Below are positions 5,809-64,000 of a stretch of DNA of 64,000 nt, one piece after another (position 1 is the stretch's first letter; every line of letters begins with the position of its first letter). Made by a program: the position numbers and the translations under genes. Below the pieces are notes generated by a model that saw nothing but the letters and a program-made list of their open reading frames with translations, searched no databases and was not told the DNA's origin. The stretch spans positions 22,579 through 86,578 of IMG/VR virus record IMGVR_UViG_3300048577_000420. One strand, written 5' to 3'. The stretch comes from a virus (lineage: Duplodnaviria > Heunggongvirae > Uroviricota > Caudoviricetes).

Positions 5809-6912
5809 GTGGCCGCAGACGATCAGCAGTGGCTCACCGGCGCGATCCGCAAGGAGATCGCCAAGCATCACCGCGGGCCCCGCCCGTACCACAACCGCCA
5901 GGACTGCCACGTGGCGGTCTCCGAGGCTCCGAGCCTCTTCGGCTACTTCTCGGGCGCCGACGTGTGCTCGCACGCCTACGTCCGCAAGTCGACGCCGGAG
6001 CAGCTGGCCGCGGGCCTGCCGGCCGACTTCGAGCAGTACCTGCCGATCGACAACTACTCGGCGGCGGACAAGGACGGCAACAACGCCACGTTCTCCGTGG
6101 AGAGCCAGGGCGGTGTCATCGACGCCCAGAACGAGCCCTGGGACGCCGGCCAGCTGCTGCGCCTCGCGATGATCTTCGAGGAGCTCACGCGCATCCGGCC
6201 GTCCATCCAGATGAAGCTCGCGGTGGACTCGCGCGTGGGCGACAGCTCGAACGGCCTGTCGGACCACCGGCTCGGGATCGACCCGTGGCGCGTGCCGGGC
6301 GGCATGTCGTACTCGAACTCGCGGGGCAAGATCTGCCCGGGCGACGCGAAGCACGCGCAGATGCCGCAGATCCTCGCGCTGGCCCAGCAGATCCGTGCCG
6401 GCGAGCACCCGACGGTGACGCCGGCTGACCCGGCTGCGCCCGCGCCCGCTCCCGTCGGCAACGGCGGCGGCGTGAAGAACTGGCTGCAGCAGGGCGACAC
6501 CGGCCCCGAGGTCGAGGACCTCCAGCGCCTGCTCAACGCCCGCGGCGCCGGCCTGGCAGTGGACGGCTCGTTCGGCCCGGCGACCCTGGCGGCCGTCCGG
6601 TCGTTCCAGCACGACGCGGGCCTGGTCATCGATGGGCTCGCCGGCCCGGCGACGATGGCCGCGCTCCACGCCGCCCCGGCTCCGGCTCCGGCGCCCGCAC
6701 CGGTCGGCGTCCTGCGCCGCGGCTCGTCGGGCCCCGAGGTGGAGCGCCTCCAGGCGTTCCTCAACCGGAACTACCCGGCCTACTCGCGGCTCAAGGAGGA
6801 CGGCCTGTTCGGGCCGGCGACCGAGGCCGTCGTCAAGGAGTTCCAGCGCCGCTGCGGCATCGACGTGGACGGCTCCGTGGGCCCGATCACCCGATCGCGC
6901 CTGGGCATCTGA
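5809..6912 (+). CDS. Endolysin: N-acetylmuramoyl-L-alanine amidase (amidase_2/PGRP-like) with two C-terminal PG_binding_1 repeats
   Basis: HVAVSE, SHAYV and CPGD amidase motifs. Two repeats of the form GDTGPEV..LQ..LN..DG.FGP.T..AV..FQ. GTG start with GAGGAGG RBS. Confidence 0.85.
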   Translation: MAADDQQWLTGAIRKEIAKHHRGPRPYHNRQDCHVAVSEAPSLFGYFSGADVCSHAYVRKSTPEQLAAGLPADFEQYLPIDNYSAADKDGNNATFSVESQGGVIDAQNEPWDAGQLLRLAMIFEELTRIRPSIQMKLAVDSRVGDSSNGLSDHRLGIDPWRVPGGMSYSNSRGKICPGDAKHAQMPQILALAQQIRAGEHPTVTPADPAAPAPAPVGNGGGVKNWLQQGDTGPEVEDLQRLLNARGAGLAVDGSFGPATLAAVRSFQHDAGLVIDGLAGPATMAALHAAPAPAPAPAPVGVLRRGSSGPEVERLQAFLNRNYPAYSRLKEDGLFGPATEAVVKEFQRRCGIDVDGSVGPITRSRLGI

Positions 6913-11335: not shown

Positions 11336-11482
11336 CCGATGGCGAGCCAGGTCGATTCCAAGGTGACGGTGGACGGGCAGGGCGCCGCGGCCGCCGGAGC
11401 GAAGGTCCAGGTCGTGCTCGACGTCGCGGTGCTCGGCACCGCACGCCTGGGCATGTGCGTGCTCGGCTGAGAGGGAGAGGAC

Positions 11483-12160
11483 ATGCCCGTACCCCAGGGC
11501 GCGACCACCGACGTCATCACGGCTGACGTCTGGAACCGCCTCGTCGCGGCCGCCAACCAGGTGCAGCTCTTCCAGGTCGGCGCCAACCCCTACACCGACC
11601 TCTCGCTGCCCGGCGACTACCCCCAGGGCGTGACCGCCTTCAGCATCGAGGACGCGACGGGGTCGACCTGGCCTACGAGCTGGGCAGTCGTCGAGACCGT
11701 GCGCGTCAACACCACGCGGTGCCTGCAGCGGGCCACGAACAACCTCGGGTACGTCTACCAGCGGGTGGCGAACGGCGTCACGAACGCATGGTCGGCGTGG
11801 TCCCTCGTCGCCGGCCCCTGCGCCACCGCGGTACCCACGGCCGGCACCGGCTGGACCCAGATCCCCGGCCTGGCCGACCTGCAGTGCGTCCGCGACGAGA
11901 ACCTCATGGTCACCGTGCAGGGCATGGTGCGCCGGACCGGCGCGTCGATCACCGGCGGGTCGACGGGCACGATCATCAGCCTGCCTGCGGGCTTCCGGCC
12001 GACGAAGGCCATCTACGCGAGCCAGGCGCGTGACGGCGGCGCGGCGAACATGATCTTCGACAACACGGGCAACGTCAGCGCGGAGATCGCAGGCACCTGG
12101 AACAAGGACATCTCGTACGTGTCCTTCCACCTGACCTTCAAGGCCGCGGCAGTCAGCTAG
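11483..12160 (+). CDS. Tail fibre-like protein, paralogous to the C-terminal domain of the 8699..11335 product
   Basis: TWPTSWAVVETVRVNTTRCLQRATN here matches SWPAPYAIVETIRTGIGRCIQRLTA in the upstream gene. Confidence 0.6.
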   Translation: MPVPQGATTDVITADVWNRLVAAANQVQLFQVGANPYTDLSLPGDYPQGVTAFSIEDATGSTWPTSWAVVETVRVNTTRCLQRATNNLGYVYQRVANGVTNAWSAWSLVAGPCATAVPTAGTGWTQIPGLADLQCVRDENLMVTVQGMVRRTGASITGGSTGTIISLPAGFRPTKAIYASQARDGGAANMIFDNTGNVSAEIAGTWNKDISYVSFHLTFKAAAVS

Positions 12161-13007
12161 CGAGCGCGTCAGCCCGTCGGGGCTTGCGGCCGCGATCGGA
12201 CTGCCACAGGCGCTCCATCCAGCTGTCCGAGCGCCCCACACGCGCCGCGGCGCTCCAGGGGTCCATGCCGTGGTCGACGAGGAACCAGTACTCCTCGCGC
12301 ACCGCCTCGGTGTCCATCGCATCCTCGTCGGCCAGGATCCCGGTCTCGCCGTCCCAGAGCGGGTCGTCGAAGAAGAAGTCCCGGTCGAAGGCCTCGGGCG
12401 GCAGCCAGCCGGCGGACCGCGCGACTGCCGCCGCGTGTCTCTGTGGTCCTGGCGTCAGCGCGTGCTCGCGGACGACGTCCATGAGCCGCAGCGCGTACTC
12501 CATCGTGACCTTCGAGCGCCCGTAGCAGTTGGCGTCCCCGTGCATGAAGCGGCGCATCATCGCGTGGCCGTAGCCCATGACGGCCATCGCCTGGAACCGG
12601 CGCCGGCTCCCACCTACGGGTGCGAACCGCGCCGCGTTCTCCAGGTGAGGCAGCTCGCGGAGCTTCTGCATCGTCACGGGCGCGACGTACTCGCCCCGAC
12701 CGTGCTGGATCTTCCAGAGCTGGCTCGTGCTGATCCCCGCGGCCGTCGCCACCGCCTTCATCGAGAGGTTGTGCAGCGCGGCCTGCTTGTGGAGCACGAC
12801 CGCCGCCTCCTGGACGGGCGTGCGCCACTTCCAGTCCGGGTTCGCATGGCGGCGGAGCTCGTGCTCCTGCGCGCGCCGGTAGCGCGTCCTCCCGTCGGCA
12901 CCCACGCCTGGCCTTGGCACTCGCGCACTCCTCTCTCGATGCTGCGACGGAGAGGTTGACCTGCGGAGACGCTCGCCGTCCAGGCAGGGCGATTCCTGCC
13001 AGCGCAC
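12153..13007 (-). CDS. XRE-type HTH DNA-binding protein, leftward-transcribed (candidate repressor or regulator). Start codon uncertain
   Basis: HTH segment LHKQAALHNLSMKAVATAAGISTSQLWKIQHGRGEYVAPVTMQKL. Opposite orientation to the flanking operons. An IR copy overlaps the putative GTG start. Confidence 0.6.
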   Translation of the reverse strand: MRWQESPCLDGERLRRSTSPSQHRERSARVPRPGVGADGRTRYRRAQEHELRRHANPDWKWRTPVQEAAVVLHKQAALHNLSMKAVATAAGISTSQLWKIQHGRGEYVAPVTMQKLRELPHLENAARFAPVGGSRRRFQAMAVMGYGHAMMRRFMHGDANCYGRSKVTMEYALRLMDVVREHALTPGPQRHAAAVARSAGWLPPEAFDRDFFFDDPLWDGETGILADEDAMDTEAVREEYWFLVDHGMDPWSAAARVGRSDSWMERLWQSDRGRKPRRADALAS

Positions 13008-13010
13008 GTT
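12993..13010. promoter_or_regulatory. IR motif copy TTCCTGC-CAGC-GCACGTT plus the TCGTCGCGT extension, in the divergent control region
   Basis: Read directly from the sequence. Shares both half-site and extension with the copy at 3535. Confidence 0.55.
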
Positions 13011-13277
13011 TCGTCGCGTACCGGGAGGGCGCCCGCGGCGGCCTCAGGATCTCCCTGCGGCTGTAGTGGCCGCGGCTCCCTCGTGGATGACCCGGGACGG
13101 CAACGCCGGGTGGGCTAAGGACTGGACACGGACACCTGTCTCCGACGGAGGCGTCGGCAGGGAACGGGCTCGGTCGCTCTCTCCGGACCACCGTGGCGTC
13201 GCCGCGGGGGGAAGGGGGGGCGTACCCAGAAGCCGTTTCCTGCTCCTCAAGAGGCGCCGTAGTCCTCCTTCCTGAAC

Positions 13278-13293
13278 GTGCTCTAGCAGGAAG
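13278..13293. promoter_or_regulatory. IR motif copy in reverse orientation (reverse complement CTTCCTGC-TAGA-GCAC)
   Basis: Read directly from the sequence. Confidence 0.5.
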
Positions 13294-13334
13294 TGCACGG
13301 AGTTGATCCGCGCGAGGCGCGAGGTCGATGCTCC

Positions 13335-13349
13335 CGAACACACGTTCGA
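13335..13349. promoter_or_regulatory. LexA/Cheo-like SOS box CGAAC-ACAC-GTTCGA, 17 bp upstream of the helicase start
   Basis: Matches the actinobacterial LexA consensus TCGAAC-N4-GTTCGA at 14 of 16 positions. Confidence 0.55.
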
Positions 13350-13365
13350 TTGGAGAGGACAGCGC

Positions 13366-14886
13366 ATGGTCAAGGCCCAGGTCGTCAGCGGCGGAGGTCG
13401 CGCATGGAGCACCGCCCCGCGGAAGGTCGCAGCGCCGCCGGCCGCGCCGACCGAGGAGCAGGCGGCCGCGATCGAGGCGTTCGGCGACGGGCACAACATG
13501 GTGCTGGAGGCCCTCGCCGGCACGGGGAAGACGACGACCCTCCGCCAGCTCGCGCACAGCACGAACATGCGCGGGCTCTACCTCGCCTACAACCGGTCGA
13601 CGGCCGACGAAGCGCAGGGCATGTTCCCGTCCAGCACGCGCTGCTCGACGATCCACTCCCTCGCGTACCGCGCGGTCGTCGACGACGTCATGCGCGAGCG
13701 GCTGAACGCCCCGCGGCAGACCAGCGCGGACGTGGCGAAGATCATCGGGGCGCCGGCCGGGTTCAAGCTCGACGGTGGCCGCGGCCGCCTCCTCGGGTCC
13801 AGCCAGCTGGCCAGGCTCGCCCTGGAGACGGTCACCGCCTTCTGCTACTCGGACGACCAGGAGATCGGCCCGCAGCACGTGCCCGCCCAGACGGGGGTCG
13901 ACGCCCCCGCCGAGGTGCGCGCGCTCGCGGCCGTCGTGGTGCCGCTGGCGAAGTCGGCCTGGTGGGACCTGCGCTCCCCCGACGGCGCGGTGCGGTTCCA
14001 GCACGACCACTACATGAAGCTCTACGCGCTGCGCGAGCCCCAGCTCGCCGCCGACTTCGTCCTCGTGGACGAGGCACAGGACAGCAACGACGTCGTCGTC
14101 GGCCTGGTCAACCGCCAGCGCGACTGCCAGGTGGTGGCTGTCGGCGACCGGCGCCAGCAGCTGTACGAGTGGCGCGGCTCGGTCGACGCGATGGACGCCT
14201 TCCACCCCGAGACGCGGCTCTACCTGACCCAGTCGTTCCGCTTCGGCCCAGCGATCGCCGAGCGCGCCAACCGCTGGCTGATCGCGCTCGGCGCCGACGT
14301 GCTGCTGCGCGGTACCCGCTCCATCCAGTCGGTCGTGGGGCCGATGGCGAAGCCCGCGGCGGTCCTGTGCCGGACGAACGCCGAGGTCATCCAGCGCGTC
14401 ATGGACGCCCAGCTGGCCGGCACGCCGGTCGCGATCGCGGGCGGGGGGCGTGACGTGCGCGCGCTCGCCGAGGCCGCGGAGCAGCTGAAGGACGTGGGCC
14501 GCACGTGGCACCCCGAGCTGTGCATGTTCACCAGCTGGGGCGAGGTGCAGGACTACGTCGAGGAGGGCGGCGGCCAGGACCTGAAGACGCTCGTCCGCCT
14601 CGTCGATCGGCACGGCGCGCGCGCGATCGTGCGGGCCATCGACCGCTGCGTGCCCGAGGCGACCGCTCGCCTGGTGGTGAGCACGGTGCACAAGGCCAAG
14701 GGGCGCGAGTGGGGCACCGTCCTCATCGCCGACGACTTCGAGGGGCCCGGCGAGGAGGCGGACGGCTCCGCGAAGTCGCTCGTCGCCGCCGAGGCGATGA
14801 CCGCGTACGTCGCCGTGACGCGCGCTCGGTTCGGGCTCGACGACTCCAGCCTGTCGTGGCTCGATGCGCACCTGGACGCCGAGTGA
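13366..14886 (+). CDS. Superfamily-1 (UvrD/PcrA/RecD-like) DNA helicase, compact at about 506 aa
   Basis: Motif I ALAGTGKTTTL, motif II VLVDEAQDSND, motif III VVAVGDRRQQLYEWRGSV, motif VI VSTVHKAKGREWGTVLI. ATG at 13366 with GGAGAGGA RBS. Confidence 0.8.
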   Translation: MVKAQVVSGGGRAWSTAPRKVAAPPAAPTEEQAAAIEAFGDGHNMVLEALAGTGKTTTLRQLAHSTNMRGLYLAYNRSTADEAQGMFPSSTRCSTIHSLAYRAVVDDVMRERLNAPRQTSADVAKIIGAPAGFKLDGGRGRLLGSSQLARLALETVTAFCYSDDQEIGPQHVPAQTGVDAPAEVRALAAVVVPLAKSAWWDLRSPDGAVRFQHDHYMKLYALREPQLAADFVLVDEAQDSNDVVVGLVNRQRDCQVVAVGDRRQQLYEWRGSVDAMDAFHPETRLYLTQSFRFGPAIAERANRWLIALGADVLLRGTRSIQSVVGPMAKPAAVLCRTNAEVIQRVMDAQLAGTPVAIAGGGRDVRALAEAAEQLKDVGRTWHPELCMFTSWGEVQDYVEEGGGQDLKTLVRLVDRHGARAIVRAIDRCVPEATARLVVSTVHKAKGREWGTVLIADDFEGPGEEADGSAKSLVAAEAMTAYVAVTRARFGLDDSSLSWLDAHLDAE

Positions 14887-15827
14887 GCGGGTACCGCGTC
14901 AACGACCGGCGCCGGCGCCCCGAGATCCCGGCAAGCATCCCGAACCCCGTCAAGGCCAAGCTCGCCGAGGCACGGGCGGAGGGCAGCAGGGCTGTCGCGA
15001 CCGTCCGGGTCCAGGAGTTCGCCAACCGCCAGGAGATCGCCAGCAGGTGGCCCGCGGCGCCGGACCTCGGAGCCAACCTCACCTACGAGGCCCGGGTCGC
15101 CCCGGTGCTCGCCGACGCCAAGGCCCGCGAGTCCGGGCTCGTGCTCGCCGGTCAGAACGTCGTCGTGATGCGGAACCGCCCAGGGATCGGGTCGCCGTAC
15201 GGTGGGTGGGAGTCCGCGCTGTACGGCGTCCGACCCATCACCGTCTGGGCCGACGAGGCGACCCTCGACGGCATGGACGAGGACGACTGGCGCTGGGTGC
15301 TCGCCCAGGACGCGGAGCGGGTCATCCCCGCCACGGTGACCTCACACGTCCGGGCCCTCGCCTGGTACGAGGGCCTCCTGAACCGCGGGCAGGCACTCCC
15401 CGTCCTGCAGCGCTGGGGACGGGCGATCGACGCCGTGGAGGAAGGCATCGAGCTGGTGACCTCGCTCGCCGGATCCGGGTCCGCCTTCTACCCCGAGGCG
15501 CCGGGGGTCCTCGACCTGACCGCCCAGGCTGCCGTCGCCAGCCGGAGCCGCGCGGTCATGAGGGGCTGGCTGACGCAGGCAAGAACCGTTGCAGATGCTG
15601 CAAAGGCATCGCGCGCGAAGGCCCGGGCCGACTGGCTGGCCTACGCCACCGAGAAGGCGGCCGAGGAAGCCGAGCCCTCCTGGCCGGCGCGAACCGCGGC
15701 CACCGACGCCGCCGCACCAGCCGGCGGCGGTGTCTTCTTGCCGGGGGGCAGCATGGTCGCGGACATCCAGAGGACCGTCGGCCTGCGGGGGTTCTCCCCC
15801 TCGCATGTCCTCTACGACGAGGCGTGA
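14883..15827 (+). CDS. Hypothetical 315-aa protein, translationally coupled (GTGA) to the helicase
   Basis: GTG at 14883 in the long open frame of ORF 14505..15827. High GC3. Confidence 0.6.
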   Translation: MSGYRVNDRRRRPEIPASIPNPVKAKLAEARAEGSRAVATVRVQEFANRQEIASRWPAAPDLGANLTYEARVAPVLADAKARESGLVLAGQNVVVMRNRPGIGSPYGGWESALYGVRPITVWADEATLDGMDEDDWRWVLAQDAERVIPATVTSHVRALAWYEGLLNRGQALPVLQRWGRAIDAVEEGIELVTSLAGSGSAFYPEAPGVLDLTAQAAVASRSRAVMRGWLTQARTVADAAKASRAKARADWLAYATEKAAEEAEPSWPARTAATDAAAPAGGGVFLPGGSMVADIQRTVGLRGFSPSHVLYDEA

Positions 15828-15835
15828 CGTGCGCT

Positions 15836-15853
15836 TCCTGCGCTAGCAGCAAT
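15836..15853. promoter_or_regulatory. IR motif copy TTCCTGC-GCTA-GCAGCAA
   Basis: Read directly from the sequence. Confidence 0.6.
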
Positions 15854-15862
15854 CGTCACGTA

Positions 15863-15877
15863 CGAACATCTGTTCGA
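15863..15877. promoter_or_regulatory. LexA/Cheo-like SOS box CGAAC-ATCT-GTTCGA, upstream of the packaging operon
   Basis: Read directly from the sequence. Same GAACA..TGTTCGATG context as the boxes at 13335 and 25662. Confidence 0.55.
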
Positions 15878-15899
15878 TGCCCGGCCGACACTGGAAGGC

Positions 15900-16622
15900 G
15901 TGGGAGGACCGGGCAGCGGCCGCCGTAAGGCCGCGGAGACGATCGAGCGGGAGATCGCTGCTCACGCCGCGAGTCAGCCGCAGGCGGAGGCCACCGGCAC
16001 GCCCGCGATGCCCGAGCTCCGCGAAGTGACCCAGCCCACGGGCTCCATCCTCAAGGTCCAGGGCCCGGACGAGGAGCGCTTCTACAACGACGCGCGCGCC
16101 AAGTACCTGGAGCAGAACCACTTCGACGCCGTCACCGACCTCGCGGACCTCGACGCGCTGCTCATGCACGAGCTCCTCGACTTCCGCTACTCCACCCAGC
16201 TCGCGTCGGGGAAGTCGTACGACGGCCTCTTCCTCTCCTTCAGGGCCGAGGAGCAGCTGCGGCAGAACAAGCTGGCCGAGGCGAAGGTCATCGGAGAGCT
16301 GAAGAAGCAGCTCGGCCTGACGCGGGCGTCTCGTGACGCTGCGCAGGGCTCGACGGCCGACTACATCCGCGACCTCATGCGGCGGGCCAAGGAGTTCGGG
16401 GTCTACCGGGACGAGCAGATCATGCGCGCCGTGGTCCTCGCGAACGAGCTCAAGAGCATCGTCGAGACCTTCGACCGCTCCAACGACACGGAGAAGCGCG
16501 TCGTCGGCATCGAGTCCGAGTCCGACATCGTCGACTGGGTCCGGCAGATGTTCATCCCGGCGTTCGACAGCATCGACCAGCAGTTCCGGGCGAACCAGCG
16601 GCTGTGGGTCGGGACCCTGTGA
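15900..16622 (+). CDS. Hypothetical protein, first gene of the packaging operon
   Basis: ORF track. GTG start with GGAAGG RBS. Confidence 0.6.
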   Translation: MGGPGSGRRKAAETIEREIAAHAASQPQAEATGTPAMPELREVTQPTGSILKVQGPDEERFYNDARAKYLEQNHFDAVTDLADLDALLMHELLDFRYSTQLASGKSYDGLFLSFRAEEQLRQNKLAEAKVIGELKKQLGLTRASRDAAQGSTADYIRDLMRRAKEFGVYRDEQIMRAVVLANELKSIVETFDRSNDTEKRVVGIESESDIVDWVRQMFIPAFDSIDQQFRANQRLWVGTL

Positions 16623-17203
16623 CCCTCCCGTCGGCGGCGGACTGGCGGCAGCACTTCACGGACGTGCCCCCGGCCTTCTACCGGCTCCTCGGCGAGCTCC
16701 TGCAGGAGGTCCAGGCCGAGCGAGAGCGCGAGCAGGGCGTGGAGCGGCGCGGCCGGCGCCCCGCACTGGCCTCCGGCTCGATGCAGGACGTCGCCGACCT
16801 CGTCTACCCGCGGCGTTCGTCTCTGCCCTTCGCCGAAGCCCTGCGCGCCGCGACCCGCCAGACGCCGTCGACGATCGCACGCCTCGCCTCGATGAACCCC
16901 GGCACCCTCCACGGGCTCATGAACGGCTCGCGCCAGCTCAACATGGCGGTCCTGCAGGACATCGCACGAGCCATCCACGTCGACCCCGCGTACTTCCACG
17001 AGTACCGCGTCCTCGCGATCCACGAGGCCATCGACTCCCTGCTGACGCCGGAGCGCTCTGCGCGCGCGTACGCGGCCATCGAGCCCACCTACAACGCCGC
17101 CCGGCCGGAGCCGAAGAACGCGGCCGGGTTCACGACGACCGCCCGGCCGGGCACGAATACCTTTGCCAATCCTGCAAAGCGAGTCGAGGGCTCTCGGGCA
17201 TGA
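16619..17203 (+). CDS. HTH (XRE-like) DNA-binding protein, putative terminase small subunit
   Basis: HTH segment TIARLASMNPGTLHGLMNGSRQLNMAVLQDIARAI. Sits directly upstream of and coupled to TerL (ATGA). Confidence 0.5.
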   Translation: MTLPSAADWRQHFTDVPPAFYRLLGELLQEVQAEREREQGVERRGRRPALASGSMQDVADLVYPRRSSLPFAEALRAATRQTPSTIARLASMNPGTLHGLMNGSRQLNMAVLQDIARAIHVDPAYFHEYRVLAIHEAIDSLLTPERSARAYAAIEPTYNAARPEPKNAAGFTTTARPGTNTFANPAKRVEGSRA

Positions 17204-18816
17204 CCGCCCTTGCACGCCTGACCGAGGAAGAGGCCTACCTCGCCGCGATCCTCATGGACCCGACCGGTGTCGACATCGCCGAGTTCCTCTGGGAGGACAC
17301 GGAGGCATCGCCCGACGGCTGCTACCGCCTCTGGCCCTTCCAGTGGCCCTGGTCGCACTCCGGCGAGCAGTACGAGATCGACGCGATGGCCCGCCAGCTG
17401 GGCAAGTCGTTCTCCGTCGTCTGGAAGGCGATGGGCTTCGTCTTCCAGCAGCCCGGCCAGGAGATGCTCGTCACGGCGCCCGAGCTCAACCACCTGGAAC
17501 TGCTCACCTCGAAGATCGAGGACGCCTTCAACCGCTACCGCCTGCTCGACGAGATGCGACCGCGCACCGCCGCGCGCGGCATCAAGAAGCAGCCGCACTG
17601 GACCATGAAGTGCCAGAACGGCGCCACCATCATGACCCGCCTGCCGAACCGGGACGGCCGCGGCGTCAAGGGCACCCACCCGGTCGTGATCGAGCTCGAC
17701 GAGGTCCAGGACTACCCCACCGCCGGCTACACCGAGCTCATCGAGACGATCAAGACCACGGCCGCCGGCATGACCTGGCGCGTGCACGGGGTCTCGAAGG
17801 GCGTCGGCCGCGACCTCCACTACACGCTCACGCAGGGCAAGAACGAGGGCCACCGCTTCTACGTCCACCACTACATCGCCGCCCACCGGCCGGGCTGGAC
17901 CGACGAGGAGCGGCAGACCAAGATCGCGCAGTACGGCGGCGACGAGTCGCACCCGGACTACCAGCGCAACGTCCTCGGCCTGCCCAGCGACGCCGGCTCG
18001 ACCCTCTTCGTCACCGCTCGCCTCCTCGCGTGCGTGCGCATCCGCGAGAGCGAGTGGGCCATCGAGTACAACGACGACGTCTACGCGCGCATCAAGGTCA
18101 ACGACGCCCTCGTCGAGCGCGTCGGCGCGATCGAGTCGCTCATCGACCTGCCGATCTGCCACCTGCGCGAGGAGTACCGGACCTACTGGGCTGGCGCCGA
18201 CATCGGCTTCACGAACGACCCCACCGAGATCCTCGTCTTCGGGTCGCTCAAGGACGGCACGGACCGCCTCCTCGCGCGCATCCGACTGGAGCGCATCTCC
18301 GCGCAGGACCAGGTCCGGGTCATCAAGCACGTCTTCGAGTTCTACGGTCTGCGGCTGCAGCGCTTCGGGATGGACCGGACCGGCAACGGCCTGCCGCTGA
18401 TGCAGTTCCTCAAGGACGACCGCGCGATCGCCGAGCGCATCGTCGGCTACAACTTCGCCGAGAAGCGCCCCGTGGAGTTCCAGGATCGCGAGCCGCGCCA
18501 GGGCGAGAAGCCCGAGGACATGGTCATCGTGCGGAACGTCAAGGACTACGCCACCGACGAGCTCCGCAAGATGGTCGACGCGAAGAAGCTGGAGCTGCCG
18601 TTCGACGACGAGCTGCTCAAGGAGTGGCAGGGCCAGACCGCCTACATCGTCAGGACCTCGAAGGACGACGACGGGGTCAAGCGCTCCTACGGCGGCGGCG
18701 CCTGCCACACCCTGGACGGCGCTCGGATGTACGCCGCGGCCAAGACACTGATGGCCATCGAGAAGCTGCTGGAGAAGCCCGCGAAGGCCGCACCGGTGCT
18801 CGATCGCTTCTTCTAG
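17200..18816 (+). CDS. terL: Terminase large subunit
   Basis: ATPase and nuclease hallmarks (VVIELDEVQD Walker B-like region). Size and position are typical of TerL. Confidence 0.8.
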   Translation: MTALARLTEEEAYLAAILMDPTGVDIAEFLWEDTEASPDGCYRLWPFQWPWSHSGEQYEIDAMARQLGKSFSVVWKAMGFVFQQPGQEMLVTAPELNHLELLTSKIEDAFNRYRLLDEMRPRTAARGIKKQPHWTMKCQNGATIMTRLPNRDGRGVKGTHPVVIELDEVQDYPTAGYTELIETIKTTAAGMTWRVHGVSKGVGRDLHYTLTQGKNEGHRFYVHHYIAAHRPGWTDEERQTKIAQYGGDESHPDYQRNVLGLPSDAGSTLFVTARLLACVRIRESEWAIEYNDDVYARIKVNDALVERVGAIESLIDLPICHLREEYRTYWAGADIGFTNDPTEILVFGSLKDGTDRLLARIRLERISAQDQVRVIKHVFEFYGLRLQRFGMDRTGNGLPLMQFLKDDRAIAERIVGYNFAEKRPVEFQDREPRQGEKPEDMVIVRNVKDYATDELRKMVDAKKLELPFDDELLKEWQGQTAYIVRTSKDDDGVKRSYGGGACHTLDGARMYAAAKTLMAIEKLLEKPAKAAPVLDRFF

Positions 18817-43465: not shown

Positions 43466-43851
43466 TGCTCAAGCTCTCCCTGCCCGCATACGACGCCGAG
43501 CGTCCGCTCACCATCCGCCTGGTGGGCCGCTCGCGCGTCGCCCCGAACGGCGATCCCTTCTCCGGGGGCCAGGCCTACGCGCCGTTCTCGATCGAGCTCT
43601 ACCCCGACGCGTGGATCGGGGATGTCCGCGTCGCGCTCGACGAGGCGGCCTTCGCGACCCCTGCAGGTTCCGGCTGGTTCGACTTCGACGTGAGCCACTC
43701 CATCGACGTGCCCGCCGCGCTCGGACTCCACGGCGGTGAAGGCTGGTTCCGGCTTTGGTCGGAGAAGTGGGTGCTGATCACCGACTGCCAGGTGAGCTAC
43801 ACGCCGTCTGGACCGGGCGACGGCACCACCGCGCAGGGCTTCTTCTCGTGA
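43465..43851 (+). CDS. Hypothetical protein
   Basis: ORF track. Confidence 0.5.
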   Translation: MLKLSLPAYDAERPLTIRLVGRSRVAPNGDPFSGGQAYAPFSIELYPDAWIGDVRVALDEAAFATPAGSGWFDFDVSHSIDVPAALGLHGGEGWFRLWSEKWVLITDCQVSYTPSGPGDGTTAQGFFS

Positions 43852-44498
43852 TCCCTGTCCTCGTGCCACGTCGCCCGGACGGCGGCGTGCGCGATGCCGC
43901 CTGGTCGGTCCTGCAGGGCTCGGTGTGGGCGGGTCAGCCGTACGAGGTCGTCGAAGGCTTCCACGCCGAGGGGCCCTTCAACCGCTCGATGGCGCTCAAC
44001 GCCGCCGCGGCCAGCGCGGGCGTGTGGGAGGTTGCGGTCGTCGCCGACGCCGACACGTGGGTACACCCAGGCGCCCTGGCCGCGGCCGTCGAGCAAGCGG
44101 CGCGAGCCCGGCACATGGTCGTGCCGCATCGGTCCTGGCGCTGCCTGACCCCCACGGCGACCGCCCGGGTCCTGTCGACGAGGCGCGCCGTGCCGGGCGA
44201 GTGGCACCTGGAGCGGACCGGGGCGGAGGCCGTCTCGGGCGTGCTGGTCGTGCACCGCGAGCAGTGGGACGCCGCCGGAGGGTTCGACGAGCGGTTCGTC
44301 GGGTACGGCTGGGAGGACCTGGCGTTCGCGCGGGCCTGCGTGCTCACGGGCGGCTGGGAGCGGCTGGCCGGGGCCGGCGCCTGCTGGCACCTGCACCACG
44401 GCCACGACGTCGACCTCAACGATCCCCAGGTGCGGGCGAACGGGCGTCTCTTCGGCGTCTGGCAGCGGGCCGAGAGCGTCACCGATGCGCGCGCCTGA
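43848..44498 (+). CDS. Glycosyltransferase, GT-A fold (family-2-like)
   Basis: DXD-like motif VVADADTW and a GYGWEDLAF motif resembling the GWGGED motif of GT2/galactosyltransferases. Confidence 0.5.
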   Translation: MIPVLVPRRPDGGVRDAAWSVLQGSVWAGQPYEVVEGFHAEGPFNRSMALNAAAASAGVWEVAVVADADTWVHPGALAAAVEQAARARHMVVPHRSWRCLTPTATARVLSTRRAVPGEWHLERTGAEAVSGVLVVHREQWDAAGGFDERFVGYGWEDLAFARACVLTGGWERLAGAGACWHLHHGHDVDLNDPQVRANGRLFGVWQRAESVTDARA

Positions 44499-44989: not shown

Positions 44990-45104
44990 TGTGACTCCTT
45001 GATCAAGAACTTACAACGGTGTGGTTCTCGCTGATCCTGTGTATCGCCCCTGCTCAGCGTCGGGGACTTTAGTCCGGTAACACGGGCGATGACCAAAAGT
45101 CAGC

Positions 45105-45152
45105 ATTCCGCTGCGCTAGCAGGAATCGCCGCGAAACCTGCGCTAGCAGGAA
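45105..45152. promoter_or_regulatory. Tandem pair of IR motif copies: ATTCCgcTGC-GCTA-GCAGGAAT and AACCTGC-GCTA-GCAGGAA, 30 bp centre to centre
   Basis: Read directly from the sequence. Lies in the 360-bp non-coding hub between the late and early regions. Confidence 0.65.
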
Positions 45153-45282
45153 GCAGCGCCGCTTGCGTCCCTGTCGGAGGCTGTGCGTAGAGTCCTCACC
45201 ACAAGCGAATCACCGGCCCGGACAGCGGGCCAGGCATCCGCGGCCTGAGCGCCGGGATGAGCCACCAAAGCAATCGGCTGAG

Positions 45283-45347
45283 GGCGGCACCTGAAAGCAC
45301 ACGCAGGAATGCGTGCGCCTCCAGGTGCCGCCCTCTTTTCGTTTTCC
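45283..45347 (+). terminator. Long compound hairpin GGCGGCACCTG..CAGGTGCCGCC with an inner stem and the T tract CTCTTTTCGTTTTCC, ending 10 nt before the RBS and ATG of the first early gene
   Basis: Read directly from the sequence. Confidence 0.5.
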
Positions 45348-56594: not shown

Positions 56595-56845
56595 CTGACA
56601 GCGATGTCAAGATTCTCGCGGTCCAGATCACCGACTCCGGAATGGAGTTGGTCGTCGCCGCAGAGAGCGAACGAAGGAAGGGACTGGGCGTCGCCCACAG
56701 CTACTTCGTCGATTTCGCCGGAGAGCGTTTCGGGCAGCAGGCCCGCGACATTCTCGACGAGATCGAGGACCTGGCAGAACGTGTCCACGTCGGCTGGAAG
56801 CGAGAGCCGAAGGCAGAGCCCGACAAGGAGGTGAGCGAGGAGTGA
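56591..56845 (+). CDS. Small acidic hypothetical protein. Start uncertain (TTG at 56591 or ATG at 56642)
   Basis: Open frame ending with a GTGA overlap into the next gene. Confidence 0.3.
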   Translation: MTDSDVKILAVQITDSGMELVVAAESERRKGLGVAHSYFVDFAGERFGQQARDILDEIEDLAERVHVGWKREPKAEPDKEVSEE

Positions 56846-57816
56846 AGGTCTACGTCGCGGGGCCCATGCGCAAGCGCCGGGCCTTCAACTTCCCCGCCTT
56901 CATGGAGGCCACCAGCGAGCTCCTGCAGCTCGGGCACGAGGTCTTCAACCCCGCCCAGCGGGACATCGACACCGGCTTCGACCCGCTCGGCATGACCGGG
57001 TTCGAGGACCTCAACGACGGCACGCACCGCTTCGACCTCCGCGAGGCCCTCGCGGCCGACACCGCGTGGATCGCCACCCAGGCGGAAGCGCTGTGCCTGC
57101 TGCCCGGGTGGGAGGAGTCCTCGGGCGCCCGGGCGGAGGTGGCCCTCGCCGCGGCCCTCGGGCTCCAGGCTGGCGAGCTCGCCGACTTCTACATCGGGAA
57201 CACCCTGCGGCCGGCAGCGGACTTCTACGCCGCCCGGTGGAACGCGAACCCGCCCAAGGTCGAGGGCGAACCGGTCCGCATCCACCTCACGGCCAACCGC
57301 CCGGGCACGCCCGGCGCGCCCCTGAGCGTGAACCCGGGCGCAGCGTCGCTCGGCACGCTCAGCATCGAGGACCTCGGCGGCCGCGACGGAGACGGCTCCC
57401 ACGAGGTCATTCCGCAGGGCGACGAGGTGCGCTTGACCTCCTCCACCGGTGGCCAGAAGGGCGACAAGGAGGCCCGGTTCGACCTCATCCCCGCCCGGCC
57501 GCTGTGGGAGCTCGCGACCCTCTACGGCCGCGGCGCCCAGAAGTATGCCGAGCGCAACTGGGAGAGCGGCTACGAGTTCCACCTGTCGTTCTCCGCCGCC
57601 ATGCGCCACGCCTGGTCGTGGTGGAACGGGGAGGACCGCGACCCCGAGACCGGCGTCAGCCATCTCGTCAACGCCGCCTGGCACCTCCTCAACCTCGTCC
57701 AGCTCCAGATCACCCACCCCGAGCACGACGACCGCCCCCAGCGGCGTCTCCCGCTCACCATCCCGAAGGGGGCGCTCCAGCGCCGCCCGCTCCCCACCCC
57801 GAGAGGAACCATCTGA
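56842..57816 (+). CDS. Fusion protein: N-terminal nucleoside 2-deoxyribosyltransferase-like (DUF4406/DNPH1-like) domain plus C-terminal dATP/dGTP pyrophosphohydrolase-like domain
   Basis: N-terminal MKVYVAGPM..FNPAQRD. C-terminal ARFDLIPARPLWELATLYGRGAQKYAERNWESGYEF. Confidence 0.55.
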   Translation: MKVYVAGPMRKRRAFNFPAFMEATSELLQLGHEVFNPAQRDIDTGFDPLGMTGFEDLNDGTHRFDLREALAADTAWIATQAEALCLLPGWEESSGARAEVALAAALGLQAGELADFYIGNTLRPAADFYAARWNANPPKVEGEPVRIHLTANRPGTPGAPLSVNPGAASLGTLSIEDLGGRDGDGSHEVIPQGDEVRLTSSTGGQKGDKEARFDLIPARPLWELATLYGRGAQKYAERNWESGYEFHLSFSAAMRHAWSWWNGEDRDPETGVSHLVNAAWHLLNLVQLQITHPEHDDRPQRRLPLTIPKGALQRRPLPTPRGTI

Positions 57817-62341: not shown

Positions 62342-64000
62342 GTGGAACTGGCCTTCTACGGCCGCGTGTCGACAGAGGACGCGCAGGACCCGGAGGCGTC
62401 CCGCGCCTGGCAACTTCGCCGGGCGCGGGACCTCGTTGAGCCGCTCGGCCACCGCATCGTGGTCGAGTACTTCGACATCGGCCAGAGCCGCTCCCTCCCC
62501 TGGAAGCGCCGCCGCGAGGCGAGCCGCCTGCTTGAGGACGTCCAGGGCGCCGGGCGCACGTTCCAGGGCATCGTCGTCGGCGAGCCCCAGCGCGCGTTCT
62601 ACGGCAACCAGTTCTCGCTGACCTTCCCGGTGCTGGTCCACTACGGCGTCGCCCTGTGGGTGCCGGAGGTCGGCGGCAAGGTCGACCCGGACTCCGAGGC
62701 GCACGACCTCGTGATGTCCCTCTTCGGCGGCATGTCGAAGGGCGAGCGGTCCCGCATCCGCACGAGGACCCGCCTGGCGATGCACGAGCTCGCCGCGAAC
62801 ACGGACCGCTTCCTCGGGGGGCGGCCGCCGTACGGCTACCAGCTGGCCGACGCCGGGCCGCACCCGAACCCCTCGAAGGCGGCGGCGGGCCAGCGGGCGC
62901 ACCGGCTGGAGCCCGACCCCATCACCGCGCCGCACGTGCGCACGATCTTCCACGCGTACGCCCAGGGTGCCGGCCTGCGCGAGATCGCCGACTCGCTCAC
63001 CTCGGCTGGGGTGCCCTCGCCGTCGGCGTACGACCGGCGCCGGAACTCCCACCGGGACCCTCGCGGCTGGTCGCACAGCGCCGTGCGCGCGATCCTGGCG
63101 AACCCGGCCTACAGCGGCGTCCGGGCCTGGGGCAAGCAGGAGAAGTACGAGACCCTCATGGACGTCGAGGACGTCGCCCTGGGCACCCAGGTCCGGATGC
63201 GCTGGCGCGACGCCGACGCGTGGGTGCGGCCCCACAGCAAGACGCACGAGGCGCTGGTGGACGACGACACGTTCGCCACCGTCCAGGGTCGCCTCGGCGC
63301 GCCGGGGCACAACGCCGACGCGACCCGGAAGCCCCGGGAGTCGGCCCACGTCTACACGCTGCGCGGCCTGCTTTACTGCGGCCTCTGCGGGCGCCGGATG
63401 CAGGGCGCGCGTCGCCCGAACCGCACCGAGGGCAGCGACCGCATCCTCTACCGCTGCGAGCTGATGCGGGGCCGGTCCATCGGCGACGAGTGCCCGGGCC
63501 ACCCGAAGACCGTCTACCTCAACGAGGCCGAGGTCGTGCCGCAGATCGACGCCTGGCTGGGCGGTCTGATGGCCGACACCTCGTGGCTCCTGGACTCCCA
63601 GCGGGCCGTCCGCGAGCCCGCCGAAGTGGTCGCGCTCCGCGAGCGCGCACGGGAGGTGGACGCCGCCCTGGCGAACCTCATGGCCGCCATCGAGCGGGGC
63701 GTGATGTCCGAGGCGATCCTCAGCCAGCTCCAGCAGCGGGAGGCCGAGAAGGCCGGGATCGCGGCCCGTCTGGCGGCCGTTGACCGGCCTCGGGAGGGCA
63801 TGTCGGCCGCCGACATCCGGGCCGTCATGGAGGCGTTCGGGGGCATGGCGGAGGTGCTCGCGCAGGCGACTCCGGAGGAGCGCGCGGCGGCGTATCAGAC
63901 CGTTGACCTGCGGCTTGACTTCGACCCGGGTACCAGGGAGATCGCCGCTGCGGCCGACCCGACCGCGTGTGTCGCTAACCGTGTCCGGAGGGGGACTTGA
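62342..64000 (+). CDS. int: Large serine recombinase (phage integrase), truncated at the window end
   Basis: N-terminal resolvase catalytic domain YGRVSTEDAQ with catalytic Ser. Recombinase domain and Zn-ribbon Cys (CGLCGRRM..C) further downstream. Confidence 0.85.
   Translation: MELAFYGRVSTEDAQDPEASRAWQLRRARDLVEPLGHRIVVEYFDIGQSRSLPWKRRREASRLLEDVQGAGRTFQGIVVGEPQRAFYGNQFSLTFPVLVHYGVALWVPEVGGKVDPDSEAHDLVMSLFGGMSKGERSRIRTRTRLAMHELAANTDRFLGGRPPYGYQLADAGPHPNPSKAAAGQRAHRLEPDPITAPHVRTIFHAYAQGAGLREIADSLTSAGVPSPSAYDRRRNSHRDPRGWSHSAVRAILANPAYSGVRAWGKQEKYETLMDVEDVALGTQVRMRWRDADAWVRPHSKTHEALVDDDTFATVQGRLGAPGHNADATRKPRESAHVYTLRGLLYCGLCGRRMQGARRPNRTEGSDRILYRCELMRGRSIGDECPGHPKTVYLNEAEVVPQIDAWLGGLMADTSWLLDSQRAVREPAEVVALRERAREVDAALANLMAAIERGVMSEAILSQLQQREAEKAGIAARLAAVDRPREGMSAADIRAVMEAFGGMAEVLAQATPEERAAAYQTVDLRLDFDPGTREIAAAADPTACVANRVRRGT

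What the first reader, a model, noticed from the sequence alone, without database searches (positions are those of the whole stretch)
12153..15827. Accessory island between the tail-fibre and packaging modules: leftward HTH regulator, divergent control region, and an SOS-boxed SF1 helicase with a coupled 315-aa partner
A 3.7-kb insert sits between the end of the tail-fibre genes and the packaging operon, with no obvious structural role there.

It has the only long leftward gene in the phage (an XRE-like HTH protein). Next to it is a 360-bp divergent region carrying two IR copies and an SOS box.

The + strand side holds a compact UvrD-like helicase of 506 aa with all SF1 motifs, GTGA-coupled to an unrecognisable 315-aa protein.

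The size and architecture resemble helicase-containing two-gene defence modules such as the GajB-like UvrD helicase of Gabija. Here, however, the partner is not an OLD/TOPRIM nuclease and the gene order differs.

Possible roles are a prophage-encoded defence or anti-defence module, a replication or recombination helper, or the immunity switch itself, with the HTH protein as repressor.
Basis: partly seen in the sequence, partly recalled or inferred. Interest (0 to 1): 0.7.

Follow-up and report, generated by a model that had tools for sequence, protein, structure and literature searches.

The report
SOS-controlled prophage helicase module with conserved RNA
This stretch of an integrated actinobacterial phage is a DNA-damage-controlled switch region driving an optional FBH1/UvrD-like helicase and an orphan protein, not a Gabija-like defence pair, and its "control region" holds a conserved structured RNA-like element also found at the head of replication genes in many other phages.

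Summary
The features exist, with corrections. The leftward HTH gene is probably 250 aa (12153-12905), so the divergent region is about 460 bp. The 506-aa SF1 helicase (13366-14886) overlaps a 314-aa gene (14883-15827) by GTGA.

The SOS box is a good actinobacterial LexA site. These are the only two exact matches in 64 kb, against 0.07 expected. The "IR copies" belong to a palindrome family with 13 exact sites in the window.

The helicase belongs to a large phage and actinobacterial family (phrog_1967). Its only relative with a solved structure is FBH1. Its GajB matches cover local motifs only.

The 314-aa protein is an orphan with no fold match. It evolves much faster than its neighbours. In related phages it occurs without the helicase but always before the packaging genes, so the two genes are not an obligate pair.

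The most interesting item was not in the finding. It is a roughly 190-nt non-coding element (13056-13246) with covarying helices and no Rfam match. Its near-invariant G6-UA-G6 motif (G6-AA-G7 in this window) recurs in at least 118 viral loci upstream of replication genes.

Best reading: a LexA- and repressor-gated early module for DNA metabolism. Defence is not supported.

The parts
12153..12905 (-). Leftward DNA-binding regulator, 250 aa (alternative GTG start at 13007 gives 284 aa). It has one N-terminal and probably one C-terminal helix-turn-helix.
   Evidence: GC3 is 0.90 and the depositor's gene call gives 250 aa. phrog_1590 scores 8e-16, and the Pfam HTH hits are weak. Relatives at 27-29% identity in Gordonia and Arthrobacter phages are annotated as HTH DNA-binding proteins. 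A distant colinear homologue sits at the same position in L008.
12993..13010 (.). Operator-like palindrome copy 1 (TTCCTGCCAGCGCACGTT), about 90 bp upstream of the HTH gene start
   Evidence: The family has 13 distinct exact core sites in the window (20 both-strand matches against 1.04 expected by chance).
13056..13246 (+). Conserved non-coding element that looks like a structured RNA. It contains a hairpin capped by GCAA, the sequence GGGCUAAGGAC, C-rich strands, and the G-rich strand GGGGGGAAGGGGGGG (13206-13220).
   Evidence: Nucleotide identity to L011, L005 and L004 is 81-82% (74% to L008), although the adjacent protein is only about 34% identical. RNAalifold and pair counts give 90% of cells paired and 10 pairs with changes on both sides, against 5.2 in shuffles. 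It is not an ORF: codon-by-codon reading of alignment A5 shows a 2-nt indel and radical substitutions. No Rfam match was found. The link to a wide viral family rests.
13275..13292 (.). Operator-like palindrome copy 2 (AACGTGCTCTAGCAGGAA), in inverted orientation to copy 1
   Evidence: A homologous site is present in L011 and a degraded one in L006.
13334..13349 (.). LexA (SOS) box 1, cCGAACACACGTTCGAt. It is followed by the ribosome-binding site GGAGAGGA (13352-13359) and the ATG at 13366.
   Evidence: The identical 14-mer is conserved in L011, whereas the left half is lost in L006, where the helicase is deleted. It fits the Streptomyces venezuelae consensus tCGAAC-N4-GNNCGa (PMC9380542).
13366..14886 (+). 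SF1 UvrD/FBH1-like DNA helicase, 506 aa
14883..15827 (+). Orphan 314-aa protein. Its GTG start overlaps the helicase TGA stop.
   Evidence: The overlap was read. There are no Pfam, PHROG, PADLOC or NCBIfam hits. Only 9 relatives were found among 1.84 billion representative proteins. The alignment has 24 invariant columns. No fold match was found.
15835..15852 (.). Operator-like palindrome copy 3 (TTCCTGCGCTAGCAGCAA), upstream of the 240-aa gene
   Evidence: L006 has the same site at the same 26-nt spacing from its LexA box.
15862..15877 (.). LexA (SOS) box 2, aCGAACATCTGTTCGAt, 23 nt before the start of the 240-aa gene
   Evidence: The L006 counterpart, CGAACGGGTGTTCGA, keeps both half-sites while the central four bases differ.
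15900..16622 (+). 240-aa protein of unknown function, the first gene of the conserved 240-aa / 194-aa HTH_31 / large-terminase block. It lies outside the finding but is under the second LexA box.

Best explanation
The segment is the induction-controlled entry into the rightward (lytic) transcription of an integrated temperate actinobacterial phage. The helicase is optional cargo within it.

Shown:
- Two rightward gene starts, helicase-partner and the 240-aa gene that leads into the terminase, each carry an operator-like palindrome followed by a consensus actinobacterial LexA box.
- The same palindrome sits in front of the leftward HTH gene and at about a dozen other places in the prophage.
- The helicase is an intact SF1 enzyme of a phage DNA-metabolism family and is dispensable in relatives.
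- The 314-aa protein is the constant member of the locus and is translationally coupled to the helicase when the helicase is present.

Inferred:
- In the lysogen, host LexA and a phage palindrome-binding repressor (possibly the HTH protein) keep these promoters shut.
- DNA damage activates RecA, LexA cleaves itself, and the transcript starts. It begins with, or runs past, the conserved structured leader element.
- The helicase then acts as an accessory 3'-5' translocase for phage replication or recombination in an SOS-induced cell. It could clear RecA filaments or protein roadblocks, as UvrD, Rep, PcrA and FBH1 do.
- The orphan protein acts in DNA metabolism or induction independently of the helicase. 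Several homologues end in acidic 'PF' tips like the SSB C-terminus, which suggests recruitment of host DNA-handling proteins.
For: LexA boxes:
- There are 2 exact matches against 0.07 expected. Both are intergenic and both lie 17-23 nt ahead of rightward starts.
- Half-sites are conserved while the central N4 varies in L006. The box is identical in L011. A box also sits upstream of the partner in L005.
- The boxes fit the experimentally defined Streptomyces motif, and prophage genes are among the strongest LexA targets there (PMC9380542).

Operator family.

Helicase:
- phrog_1967 scores 1.7e-87 full length.
- 247 phage records cover at least 80% of the protein. The listed hits are nearly all annotated as DNA helicase, and those examined are large phages.
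- FBH1 scores 9e-36.
- Relatives at about 50% identity occur in actinobacterial mobile elements.

Dispensability:
- L008 lacks the helicase.
- L006 keeps only a 58-codon N-terminal remnant fused just before the partner gene.
- L011 has the helicase but an internally deleted partner.

Partner constancy and speed:
- Its identity is 33-38% where the terminase is 56-88%, the 240-aa protein 59-71% and the helicase 60%.
- The 4-nt overlap is kept in L007 and L011.

SSB-like tips: GDDFPM, QDLPF and EEAPPF.

The phage is temperate: it has a serine integrase at 62342-64000+ and sits on a 440-kb contig.
Against: - No expression or binding data exist, and promoters could not be located.
- The phage already has a primase-DnaB helicase, an AAA_24 protein and a PD-(D/E)XK nuclease at 46-52 kb. 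The need for a second helicase is therefore unclear.
- L007, L008 and L004 lack recognisable LexA boxes, so SOS control is a feature of one sublineage only.
- The window's own partner lacks the acidic tip.
- The rapid divergence of the partner is equally typical of arms-race genes.
- Nothing shows that the helicase and the partner interact.
Confidence: 0.5

Rival explanations
1. The region is the phage's immunity switch. On this reading the leftward HTH protein is the repressor. It binds the TTCCTGC-N4-GCAGGAA palindromes at its own promoter, at the two rightward promoters and at dispersed sites. This would resemble the dispersed repressor sites of phiC31 or the stoperators of cluster A mycobacteriophages. 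This can be true together with the best explanation.
For: The arrangement is divergent, with a palindrome before each transcription unit. There are 13 exact core sites against about 1 expected, several of them at intergenic positions such as 23381, 45110/45137 and 54878. A distant homologue of the HTH protein occupies the same position in L008, which also has palindromes of this type.
Against: L011 has closely similar operator-like palindromes but an unrelated leftward protein. No S24 or other cleavage domain was found. Family members in Gordonia and Arthrobacter phages lie in rightward late-genome positions and are annotated only as HTH proteins. A second divergent region at about 44990-45312 carries two tandem palindromes and could be the real switch.
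Confidence: 0.3
2. The helicase and its partner form a prophage-encoded two-gene defence or anti-defence module (helicase plus effector, in the manner of Gabija). It would be switched on by DNA damage.
For: The insert is accessory and variable and sits at a cargo hot spot. The partner evolves very fast and is an orphan. One helicase relative in Streptomyces dysideae lies among defence-like genes such as nSTAND, PLD and Schlafen-AlbA. There are local PADLOC hits to GajB and DRT helicase models.
Against: PADLOC has no hit for the partner, and only motif-level hits for the helicase. No OLD/TOPRIM or nuclease signature was found. The partner occurs without the helicase, and the helicase family occurs without the partner. 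The pair was found only in this phage lineage: there were none in 185,579 species genomes using the one pattern scanned, and only L007 again in metagenomes.
Confidence: 0.12
3. The 314-aa protein is a LexA-controlled antirepressor or excision/induction factor, for example a directionality factor for the serine integrase. The helicase would simply have been inserted into its operon.
For: In L005 a LexA half-site pair lies in the presumed promoter directly upstream of the leader and the partner gene. The partner is constant in the lineage and diverges fast, as antirepressors and directionality factors do. LexA-gated antirepressors are an established route of prophage induction (own knowledge: coliphage 186 Tum, Gifsy phages).
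Against: There is no similarity to any known antirepressor or directionality factor, and no tblastn match in 50,697 phage records. In L006 the box upstream of the partner has decayed while the box upstream of the 240-aa gene is kept. There is no evidence of interaction with a repressor or the integrase.
Confidence: 0.13
4. The conserved element is a replication origin or primer-forming site, and the helicase (with the partner as an accessory or loader) works on it. In other words, this would be a second, origin-proximal replication module.
For: In other viral contigs the element family lies directly upstream of exonuclease, DnaB-like helicase, primase/helicase, O-like initiator and P-like loader genes. 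Its G6-TA-G6 motif is the same string as teleost mitochondrial CSB-2 (PMC3739747). That block forms an RNA primer through a G-quadruplex R-loop (PMC3488243). Rolling-circle replicons use UvrD/Rep/PcrA-type helicases (own knowledge).
Against: The C-to-U variation opposite an invariant G strand points to RNA hairpin pairing rather than a DNA site. In the helicase-less relatives L008 and L005, and in L004 where the upstream sequence is cut off, the element precedes the partner and packaging genes. The partner has no similarity to loaders or initiators. The string identity with CSB-2 may be chance for a low-complexity 14-mer.
Confidence: 0.12

Closest known systems
UvrD-family SF1A helicases, specifically the helicase domain of F-box DNA helicase 1 (FBH1) and the phage family phrog_1967
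   Same: All SF1 motifs are present. The match to phrog_1967 is full length (1.7e-87). FBH1 residues 390-819 align to residues 47-459 at E 9e-36.
   Different: There is no F-box or other accessory domain. The protein is compact at 506 aa. UvrD, Rep and PcrA models match only one short motif. It is under a LexA box and lies next to packaging genes rather than in the replication module.
Gabija (GajA OLD-type ATPase/TOPRIM nuclease plus GajB UvrD-like helicase)
   Same: A UvrD-like helicase is adjacent to a second gene on a mobile element.
   Different: GajB models match only 45-110 residues. The partner is not OLD/TOPRIM. The gene order is reversed. The partner is not dependent on the helicase in relatives.
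LexA-gated prophage control, for example Bacillus phage GIL01 (LexA as lysogeny repressor) and LexA-controlled antirepressors of coliphage 186 and Gifsy phages (own knowledge), and LexA-bound prophage genes in Streptomyces venezuelae (PMC9380542)
   Same: Consensus host SOS boxes sit at phage lytic promoters, so induction is wired directly to LexA cleavage.
   Different: Here each box is paired with a phage palindromic operator. There are two boxes, one before an accessory helicase operon and one before the packaging block. No gp7-like or Tum-like protein was identified.
Dispersed repressor sites of actinophages (phiC31 conserved inverted repeats; stoperators of cluster A mycobacteriophages), from own knowledge
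   Same: One short motif is repeated more than a dozen times across the prophage, including at the switch-like divergent region.
   Different: The motif is a 5-N4-5 palindrome with TT/AA flanks. The binding protein is unknown. Several sites lie inside genes.
Cis-acting phage leader RNAs (HK022 put, lambda late-promoter short RNA), riboswitch-type attenuators, and mitochondrial CSB II (PMC3488243)
   Same: The element is a conserved structured segment at the very start of an early operon. It has a G-rich strand followed by a short U-rich tract, and the G6-TA-G6 string is identical to teleost CSB-2.
   Different: It has no sequence or structure match to any of the 4227 Rfam 15 families. It is much larger than put. 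No ligand, partner or cleavage is known.

Membership tests
Gabija | Adjacent GajA: an OLD-family ABC-type ATPase fused to a TOPRIM nuclease | tested here: not met
   The partner and both flanking genes have no PADLOC, Pfam or NCBIfam hit of this kind. The fold searches found nothing.
Gabija | GajB-type helicase recognised over its full length by GajB models | tested here: not met
   The best GajB hit is 5.6e-12 over residues 249-322 only. All hits cover single motifs. No GajB chain was among the PDB sequence matches at 1e-3.
SF1 UvrD-like helicase (phrog_1967 / FBH1-like) | Walker A, DExx, and motifs III, IV, V and VI in order, with a full-length family match | tested here: met
   The motifs were read in the translation. 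phrog_1967 covers residues 47-513 at 1.7e-87. Pfam AAA_19, UvrD-helicase and UvrD_C score above cut-off. FBH1 scores 9e-36.
SF1 UvrD-like helicase (phrog_1967 / FBH1-like) | ATP-dependent 3'-5' unwinding activity | not testable with these tools
   This needs biochemistry.
LexA (SOS) regulon member, Actinobacteria | A 16-bp box matching tCGAAC-N4-GNNCGa in the promoter or leader of the gene | tested here: met
   Boxes at 13334-13349 and 15862-15877 each match 11 of the 12 positions of the palindromic form TCGAAC-N4-GTTCGA. They are the only exact core matches in 64 kb against 0.07 expected. The boxes are conserved in L011, L006 and L005. The consensus comes from PMC9380542.
LexA (SOS) regulon member, Actinobacteria | LexA binding and induction by DNA damage | not testable with these tools
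   This needs gel-shift or ChIP assays and RNA measurements after mitomycin C.
CI/LexA-type cleavable immunity repressor | An HTH domain plus an S24 peptidase (autocleavage) domain | tested here: not met
   Only sub-threshold HTH hits were found, and no Peptidase_S24 hit at E<=0.1.
Phage replication initiator / helicase-loader pair (O/P-like, DnaC-like) | Recognisable initiator or loader domain in the 314-aa protein or its neighbours | tested here: not met
   There are no Pfam, PHROG or NCBIfam hits for the partner. O-like and P-like proteins were recognised by the same search in other loci.
Any described RNA family (Rfam 15) | A covariance-model match to the 13056-13246 element or its homologues | tested here: not met
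   There was no match at E<=1 in the window region. The homologues L004, L005, L011 and L015 gave nothing at E<=5. Twelve loci of the wide family gave nothing at E<=0.1.

The most novel reading that the evidence does not exclude
The 13056-13246 element may belong to a previously undescribed, widespread class of phage structured RNA. Its features are a GNRA-capped hairpin, a conserved GGGC(A/U)GAAAC-type segment, and a near-invariant G6-UA-G6 strand (G6-AA-G7 in this window) paired to variable C/U strands. The class sits at the head of DNA-replication and early operons in many unrelated phages. It could act in cis as a leader (attenuator or antitermination RNA), or as a transcription-made replication primer analogous to mitochondrial CSB II. 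In this prophage it has been placed under LexA and repressor control together with an FBH1-like helicase.
Probability: 0.35. Interest if true: 0.8.

Novelty: new variant of a known kind. Interest (0 to 1): 0.6.

Why it matters
Three things would matter if this reading holds.

1. Induction wiring. A temperate actinophage would have two lytic transcription units wired directly to host LexA, alongside its own dispersed operator system. Direct LexA gating is known from a few phages but is poorly documented in Actinobacteria.

2. The helicase family. FBH1-like SF1 helicases form a very large phage and mobile-element family, with more than 2800 relatives found here, and no assigned role. An SOS-gated, dispensable copy gives a tractable system for asking what they do. 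One candidate role is anti-recombinase activity against RecA.

3. The conserved element. It may be a new, broadly distributed phage RNA associated with replication genes. Its near-invariant G6-UA-G6 strand and its position make it directly testable as a leader, attenuator or primer.

The finding also removes a false lead: this is not a Gabija-type defence pair.

Tried and rejected
- DNA similarity to cultured phages: none at blastn sensitivity for 11400-17300. The nearest record is the metagenomic phage GX15bay, with the terminase at 39% identity.
- Window wrap-around or a duplicated phage as an explanation for tail fibres lying before the terminase: rejected, because there are no long self-repeats.
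- tRNA genes or a tRNA-type attachment site near the island: none.
- Partner function from sequence: Pfam, PHROGs, PADLOC, NCBIfam, a PDB profile search and a tblastn of phage records were all empty.
- Partner outside this lineage: a scan of 185,579 species genomes with one pattern found nothing. The metagenome scan re-found only L007. The first attempt on genomes failed for lack of a conserved stretch.
- Small ORF in the conserved element: rejected. Reading alignment A5 codon by codon shows a 2-nt indel between the window and L005 and mostly radical substitutions.
- Cos site: considered because two contigs break inside the element (L020 and L006). The breaks are about 145 nt apart and each adjoins a C or G homopolymer run, so they are more likely assembly breaks.
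- Thermodynamic support for the RNA fold: not significant at this GC content (z = -0.78 for the plus strand, +0.76 for the minus strand). The case rests on covariation.
- Sequence-only profile of the wide family: it does not reach the window copy, so the link is transitive through L005, L004, L008 and L015.
- The covariance model built from the local family reaches only a few wide-family members, at E between 4e-4 and 5e-2.
- Sigma-70-type promoter scan: nothing, as expected for this GC content.
- Literature string search for the G-rich motif: it returned only mitochondrial control-region papers. Keyword searches for a described phage RNA of this kind found none.

Full report
**Origin and setting**

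The window is 71% G+C throughout. It is part of a 440-kb JGI metagenome contig, Ga0498942_000115, and the same locus was assembled in three related samples.

Genes to the right of the finding are the large terminase, portal, capsid, a 1741-aa tape measure and minor tail proteins. After these come a PD-(D/E)XK nuclease, an AAA_24 protein, a primase-DnaB fusion, a dATP/dGTP diphosphohydrolase-like protein and a large serine recombinase at the window's end. This is therefore an integrated temperate actinobacterial phage.

No cultured phage is close. DNA searches found nothing. The best protein relative of the terminase, at 39% identity, is the mangrove-soil phage GX15bay. There are no long internal repeats and no tRNA genes.

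**Checking the observation**

- *Tail fibres.* The tail-fibre genes end at 12160.
- *HTH gene.* A leftward ORF runs from 13007 or 12905 down to 12153. The depositor's call and the start of the PHROG match favour the 250-aa version, which makes the divergent region about 460 bp.
- *Helicase.* It starts at the ATG at 13366 behind a GGAGAGGA ribosome-binding site. It is 506 aa and carries all SF1 motifs.
- *Overlap.* Its TGA overlaps the GTG of a 314-aa gene, read as GAGTGAGCG.
- *SOS box.* cCGAACACACGTTCGAt lies at 13334-13349. A search for the core CGAAC-N4-GTTCG finds exactly two perfect copies in 64 kb, against 0.07 expected.
- *Consensus.* Both boxes fit the motif determined by ChIP-seq and surface plasmon resonance in Streptomyces venezuelae, tCGAAC-N4-GNNCGa. 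In that study prophage genes were among the most strongly induced LexA targets (PMC9380542).
- *Inverted repeats.* The two 'IR copies' (12993-13010 and 13275-13292) are members of a palindrome family, TT-CCTGC-N4-GCA(G/C)G-AA. It has 13 exact core sites in the window against about one expected, plus further one-mismatch copies. One of these sits at 15835-15852, next to the second LexA box.

**The helicase**

It matches the phage family phrog_1967 ('DNA helicase') over nearly its whole length, at 1.7e-87. By tblastn, 247 phage records cover at least 80% of it at 31-37% identity. These include Acinetobacter, Pseudomonas and Klebsiella phages and jumbo Streptomyces phages, and the listed hits are nearly all annotated as DNA helicase.

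Among all PDB sequences only the helicase domain of human FBH1 matches, at 9e-36. The equivalog models for UvrD, Rep and PcrA touch one short motif. PADLOC GajB and DRT helicase models likewise hit only 45-110 residues.

In the large protein collection there are more than 2800 relatives. Those at about 50% identity come from Kribbella, Micromonospora, Mycolicibacterium, Streptosporangium, Gordonia and Streptomyces. Two contexts I examined are mobile-element regions. One has a DnaB with an intein and an FtsK/HerA-like protein. The other has Mu-type transposition genes and defence-like neighbours. Neither has a homologue of the 314-aa protein.

**The 314-aa protein**

No profile library recognises it, and it has no tblastn match in 50,697 phage records. 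An exhaustive HMMER pass over 1.84 billion representatives finds only nine relatives at 35-42% identity. Their alignment has 24 invariant positions, many of them tryptophans and an APVLA...GLVL.GQ block, so it is a real protein family.

An AlphaFold model (pLDDT 66) shows a small alpha/beta part followed by a confident long helical hairpin and a disordered tail. It has no meaningful match in the PDB or among viral structures.

Several homologues end in acidic 'PF' tips: GDDFPM, QDLPF and EEAPPF...PPLF. These resemble the C-terminal tip of bacterial SSB (own knowledge). The window's copy stops just short of this tip.

**Related loci**

Comparative context changes the picture.

| Locus | Helicase | Partner | Notes |
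|---|---|---|---|
| L007 | present, 60% identity | present, 38% identity, 4-nt overlap | followed by the 240-aa gene, the 194-aa gene and the terminase |
| L011 | present, 70% identity | present but broken by an internal deletion, 4-nt overlap | |
| L008 | absent | present | leftward gene distantly homologous to the HTH protein; packaging block with terminase at 81% identity |
| L005 | absent | present | partner follows tail-fibre genes directly |
| L006 | 58-codon N-terminal stub ending just before the partner gene | present | a clean deletion of the helicase body |
| L004 | unknown (only 321 nt upstream) | present | packaging block present |
| GX15bay | absent | absent | a glycosyltransferase cassette lies just upstream of the 240-aa homologue and terminase |

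Four conclusions follow:

- The slot is a cargo site.
- The helicase is optional.
- The 314-aa protein is the constant member of the lineage.
- The two are not an obligate pair.

The partner is 33-38% identical across loci where the terminase is 56-88%, the 240-aa protein 59-71% and the helicase 60%.

**Regulatory signals in relatives**

L011 keeps the identical LexA core before its helicase. In L006 the left half of that box has decayed along with the helicase, but the operator and LexA box before the 240-aa gene are kept. They have the same 26-nt spacing and a different central tetranucleotide. L005 has a GAAC-N4-GTTCGA site between an operator and the conserved element. Conserved half-sites with free spacers are what a functional site predicts. 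L004, L007 and L008 lack such boxes, so SOS wiring is specific to a sublineage.

**The conserved element**

The divergent region is not just promoters. A stretch of about 190-230 nt (window 13056-13246) is 81-82% identical at the DNA level to L011, L005 and L004 (74% to L008). It also occurs in an otherwise unrelated viral contig, L015, where it lies between tail-like genes and small genes plus an HNH endonuclease.

It is not a gene. The only shared reading frame is broken by a 2-nt indel, and most differences are radical.

RNAalifold on the six versions predicts these helices:

- a 5' hairpin;
- a hairpin capped by GCAA with five of eight pairs changed on both sides;
- two helices in which C-rich strands pair with the two halves of a G-rich strand.

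Overall 90% of cells are paired, against 46-61% when partners are slid. Ten pairs show double changes, against 5.2 in shuffles. Many pairs are G-U on the plus strand, which would be A-C mismatches on the other strand. Folding energy alone is not informative at this G+C content. Rfam 15 has no match.

**Link to a wider viral family**

The G-rich strand reads GGGGGGTAGGGGGG in the relatives and GGGGGGAAGGGGGGG in the window. They fall into at least ten sequence clusters of very different G+C content and share a recognisable plan:

- a GNRA-capped hairpin (GNRA in 12 of 17 sampled loops) with covarying stems;
- a GGGGC(A/G)GAAAC-type segment that can pair with the UUUC(U/C) after the G strand;
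- a variable C/U-rich strand that pairs with the invariant G strand, mostly through C-G to U-G changes.

A covariance model built from the six local sequences reaches a few of them, with E between 4e-4 and 5e-2. A sequence profile of the wide family reaches L004, L005, L008 and L015 but not the window copy. The window's membership is therefore by transitive homology.

Twelve of these loci, and the four close homologues, gave no Rfam match to the element.

The genes just downstream in those viral contigs are an exonuclease, a DnaB-like helicase, a primase/helicase, HNH endonucleases, an O-like initiator, a P-like loader, a DpdA-like transglycosylase and integrases. The element therefore marks the head of early DNA-metabolism operons.

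A full-text search for the motif returned only mitochondrial papers. G6-TA-G6 is the teleost CSB-2 block (PMC3739747). CSB II makes the replication primer through a G-quadruplex R-loop (PMC3488243). I treat this as an analogy worth testing, not as evidence.

**Interpretation**

The best-supported reading is a damage-inducible, repressor-gated entry into rightward transcription. LexA and a palindrome-binding phage repressor hold two promoters. On induction, a transcript carrying or following the structured leader expresses an accessory FBH1/UvrD-like helicase and the orphan protein. The second promoter opens the block that leads into the terminase.

The helicase most likely helps phage DNA replication or recombination under SOS conditions.

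The orphan protein's role is unknown. An antirepressor or excision factor, an SSB-tip-bearing DNA-metabolism adaptor, and an arms-race effector all remain possible.

The Gabija-like reading fails its defining features. The immunity-switch reading for the HTH protein remains open and is compatible with the main explanation.

**Limits**

- Nothing here shows expression, binding or interaction.
- Promoters were not located.
- The host is not identified.
- The wide-family RNA alignment is hand-guided and small.
- Novelty of the RNA rests on the absence of an Rfam match and on unsuccessful literature searches.

Noticed in passing
window 13056-13246; loci L004, L005, L008, L011, L015 and L021-L138: A conserved structured RNA-like element with a near-invariant G6-UA-G6 strand (G6-AA-G7 in the window). 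It belongs to a family present in at least 118 viral loci upstream of replication genes and has no Rfam 15 match.
   Followed up: partly
window 15835-15877: A second operator-plus-LexA-box pair lies directly upstream of the 240-aa gene that leads into the terminase. The pair is conserved with the same spacing in L006.
   Followed up: yes
window 44990-45340: A second divergent region lies between an 85-aa leftward ORF and rightward early genes. It has two tandem operator palindromes (cores at 45110 and 45137) and a 56-nt imperfect palindrome at 45280-45335. It may be the main genetic switch.
   Followed up: no
window 56842-57816: A protein with a DUF4406 domain and a dATP/dGTP diphosphohydrolase N-terminal domain (PF18909, 1e-30). 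Domains of this kind occur in phages that modify their DNA bases (own knowledge). No other base-modification genes were looked for.
   Followed up: no
L006 76-309 and L011 3413-3945: Two natural decay variants. L006 keeps only a 58-codon stub of the helicase ending just before the partner gene. L011 keeps the helicase but its partner is split by an internal deletion. Both genes therefore appear dispensable.
   Followed up: yes
partner homologues P0002, P0006 and P0007 / L007 5328-6164: The C-termini end in acidic 'PF' tips (GDDFPM, QDLPF, EEAPPF...PPLF) after a disordered linker, resembling the SSB C-terminal tip. The window copy stops six residues short of this tip.
   Followed up: partly
L009 (GX15bay, MK557849.1 13126-18249): Just upstream of the homologous packaging genes, this distant relative carries seven glycosyl-, rhamnosyl- and methyltransferase genes. 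The slot is therefore a general cargo site.
   Followed up: partly
L092 3139-3205: A type II hammerhead ribozyme (41.5 bits, above the Rfam gathering score) lies 1.4 kb from the G-rich element in one viral contig.
   Followed up: no
window 5809-6912 and 43755-44498: A 367-aa protein with two PG_binding_1 domains (a likely lysin) lies upstream of the tail fibres. A glycosyltransferase-like gene lies after the minor tail genes.
   Followed up: no
L020, L006, L038, L123, L132 and other loci: Many metagenome contigs begin or end within a few dozen bases of the G or C runs of the element. This is probably assembly failure at homopolymers, but genome termini were not excluded.
   Followed up: partly
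alignment A6, columns 88 and 212: In the wide family, the purine after each of two GGGGC segments is the same base in 16 of 17 sequences (A with A, G with G). This is not Watson-Crick covariation and remains unexplained. Both strands may pair alternately with a third segment.
   Followed up: no
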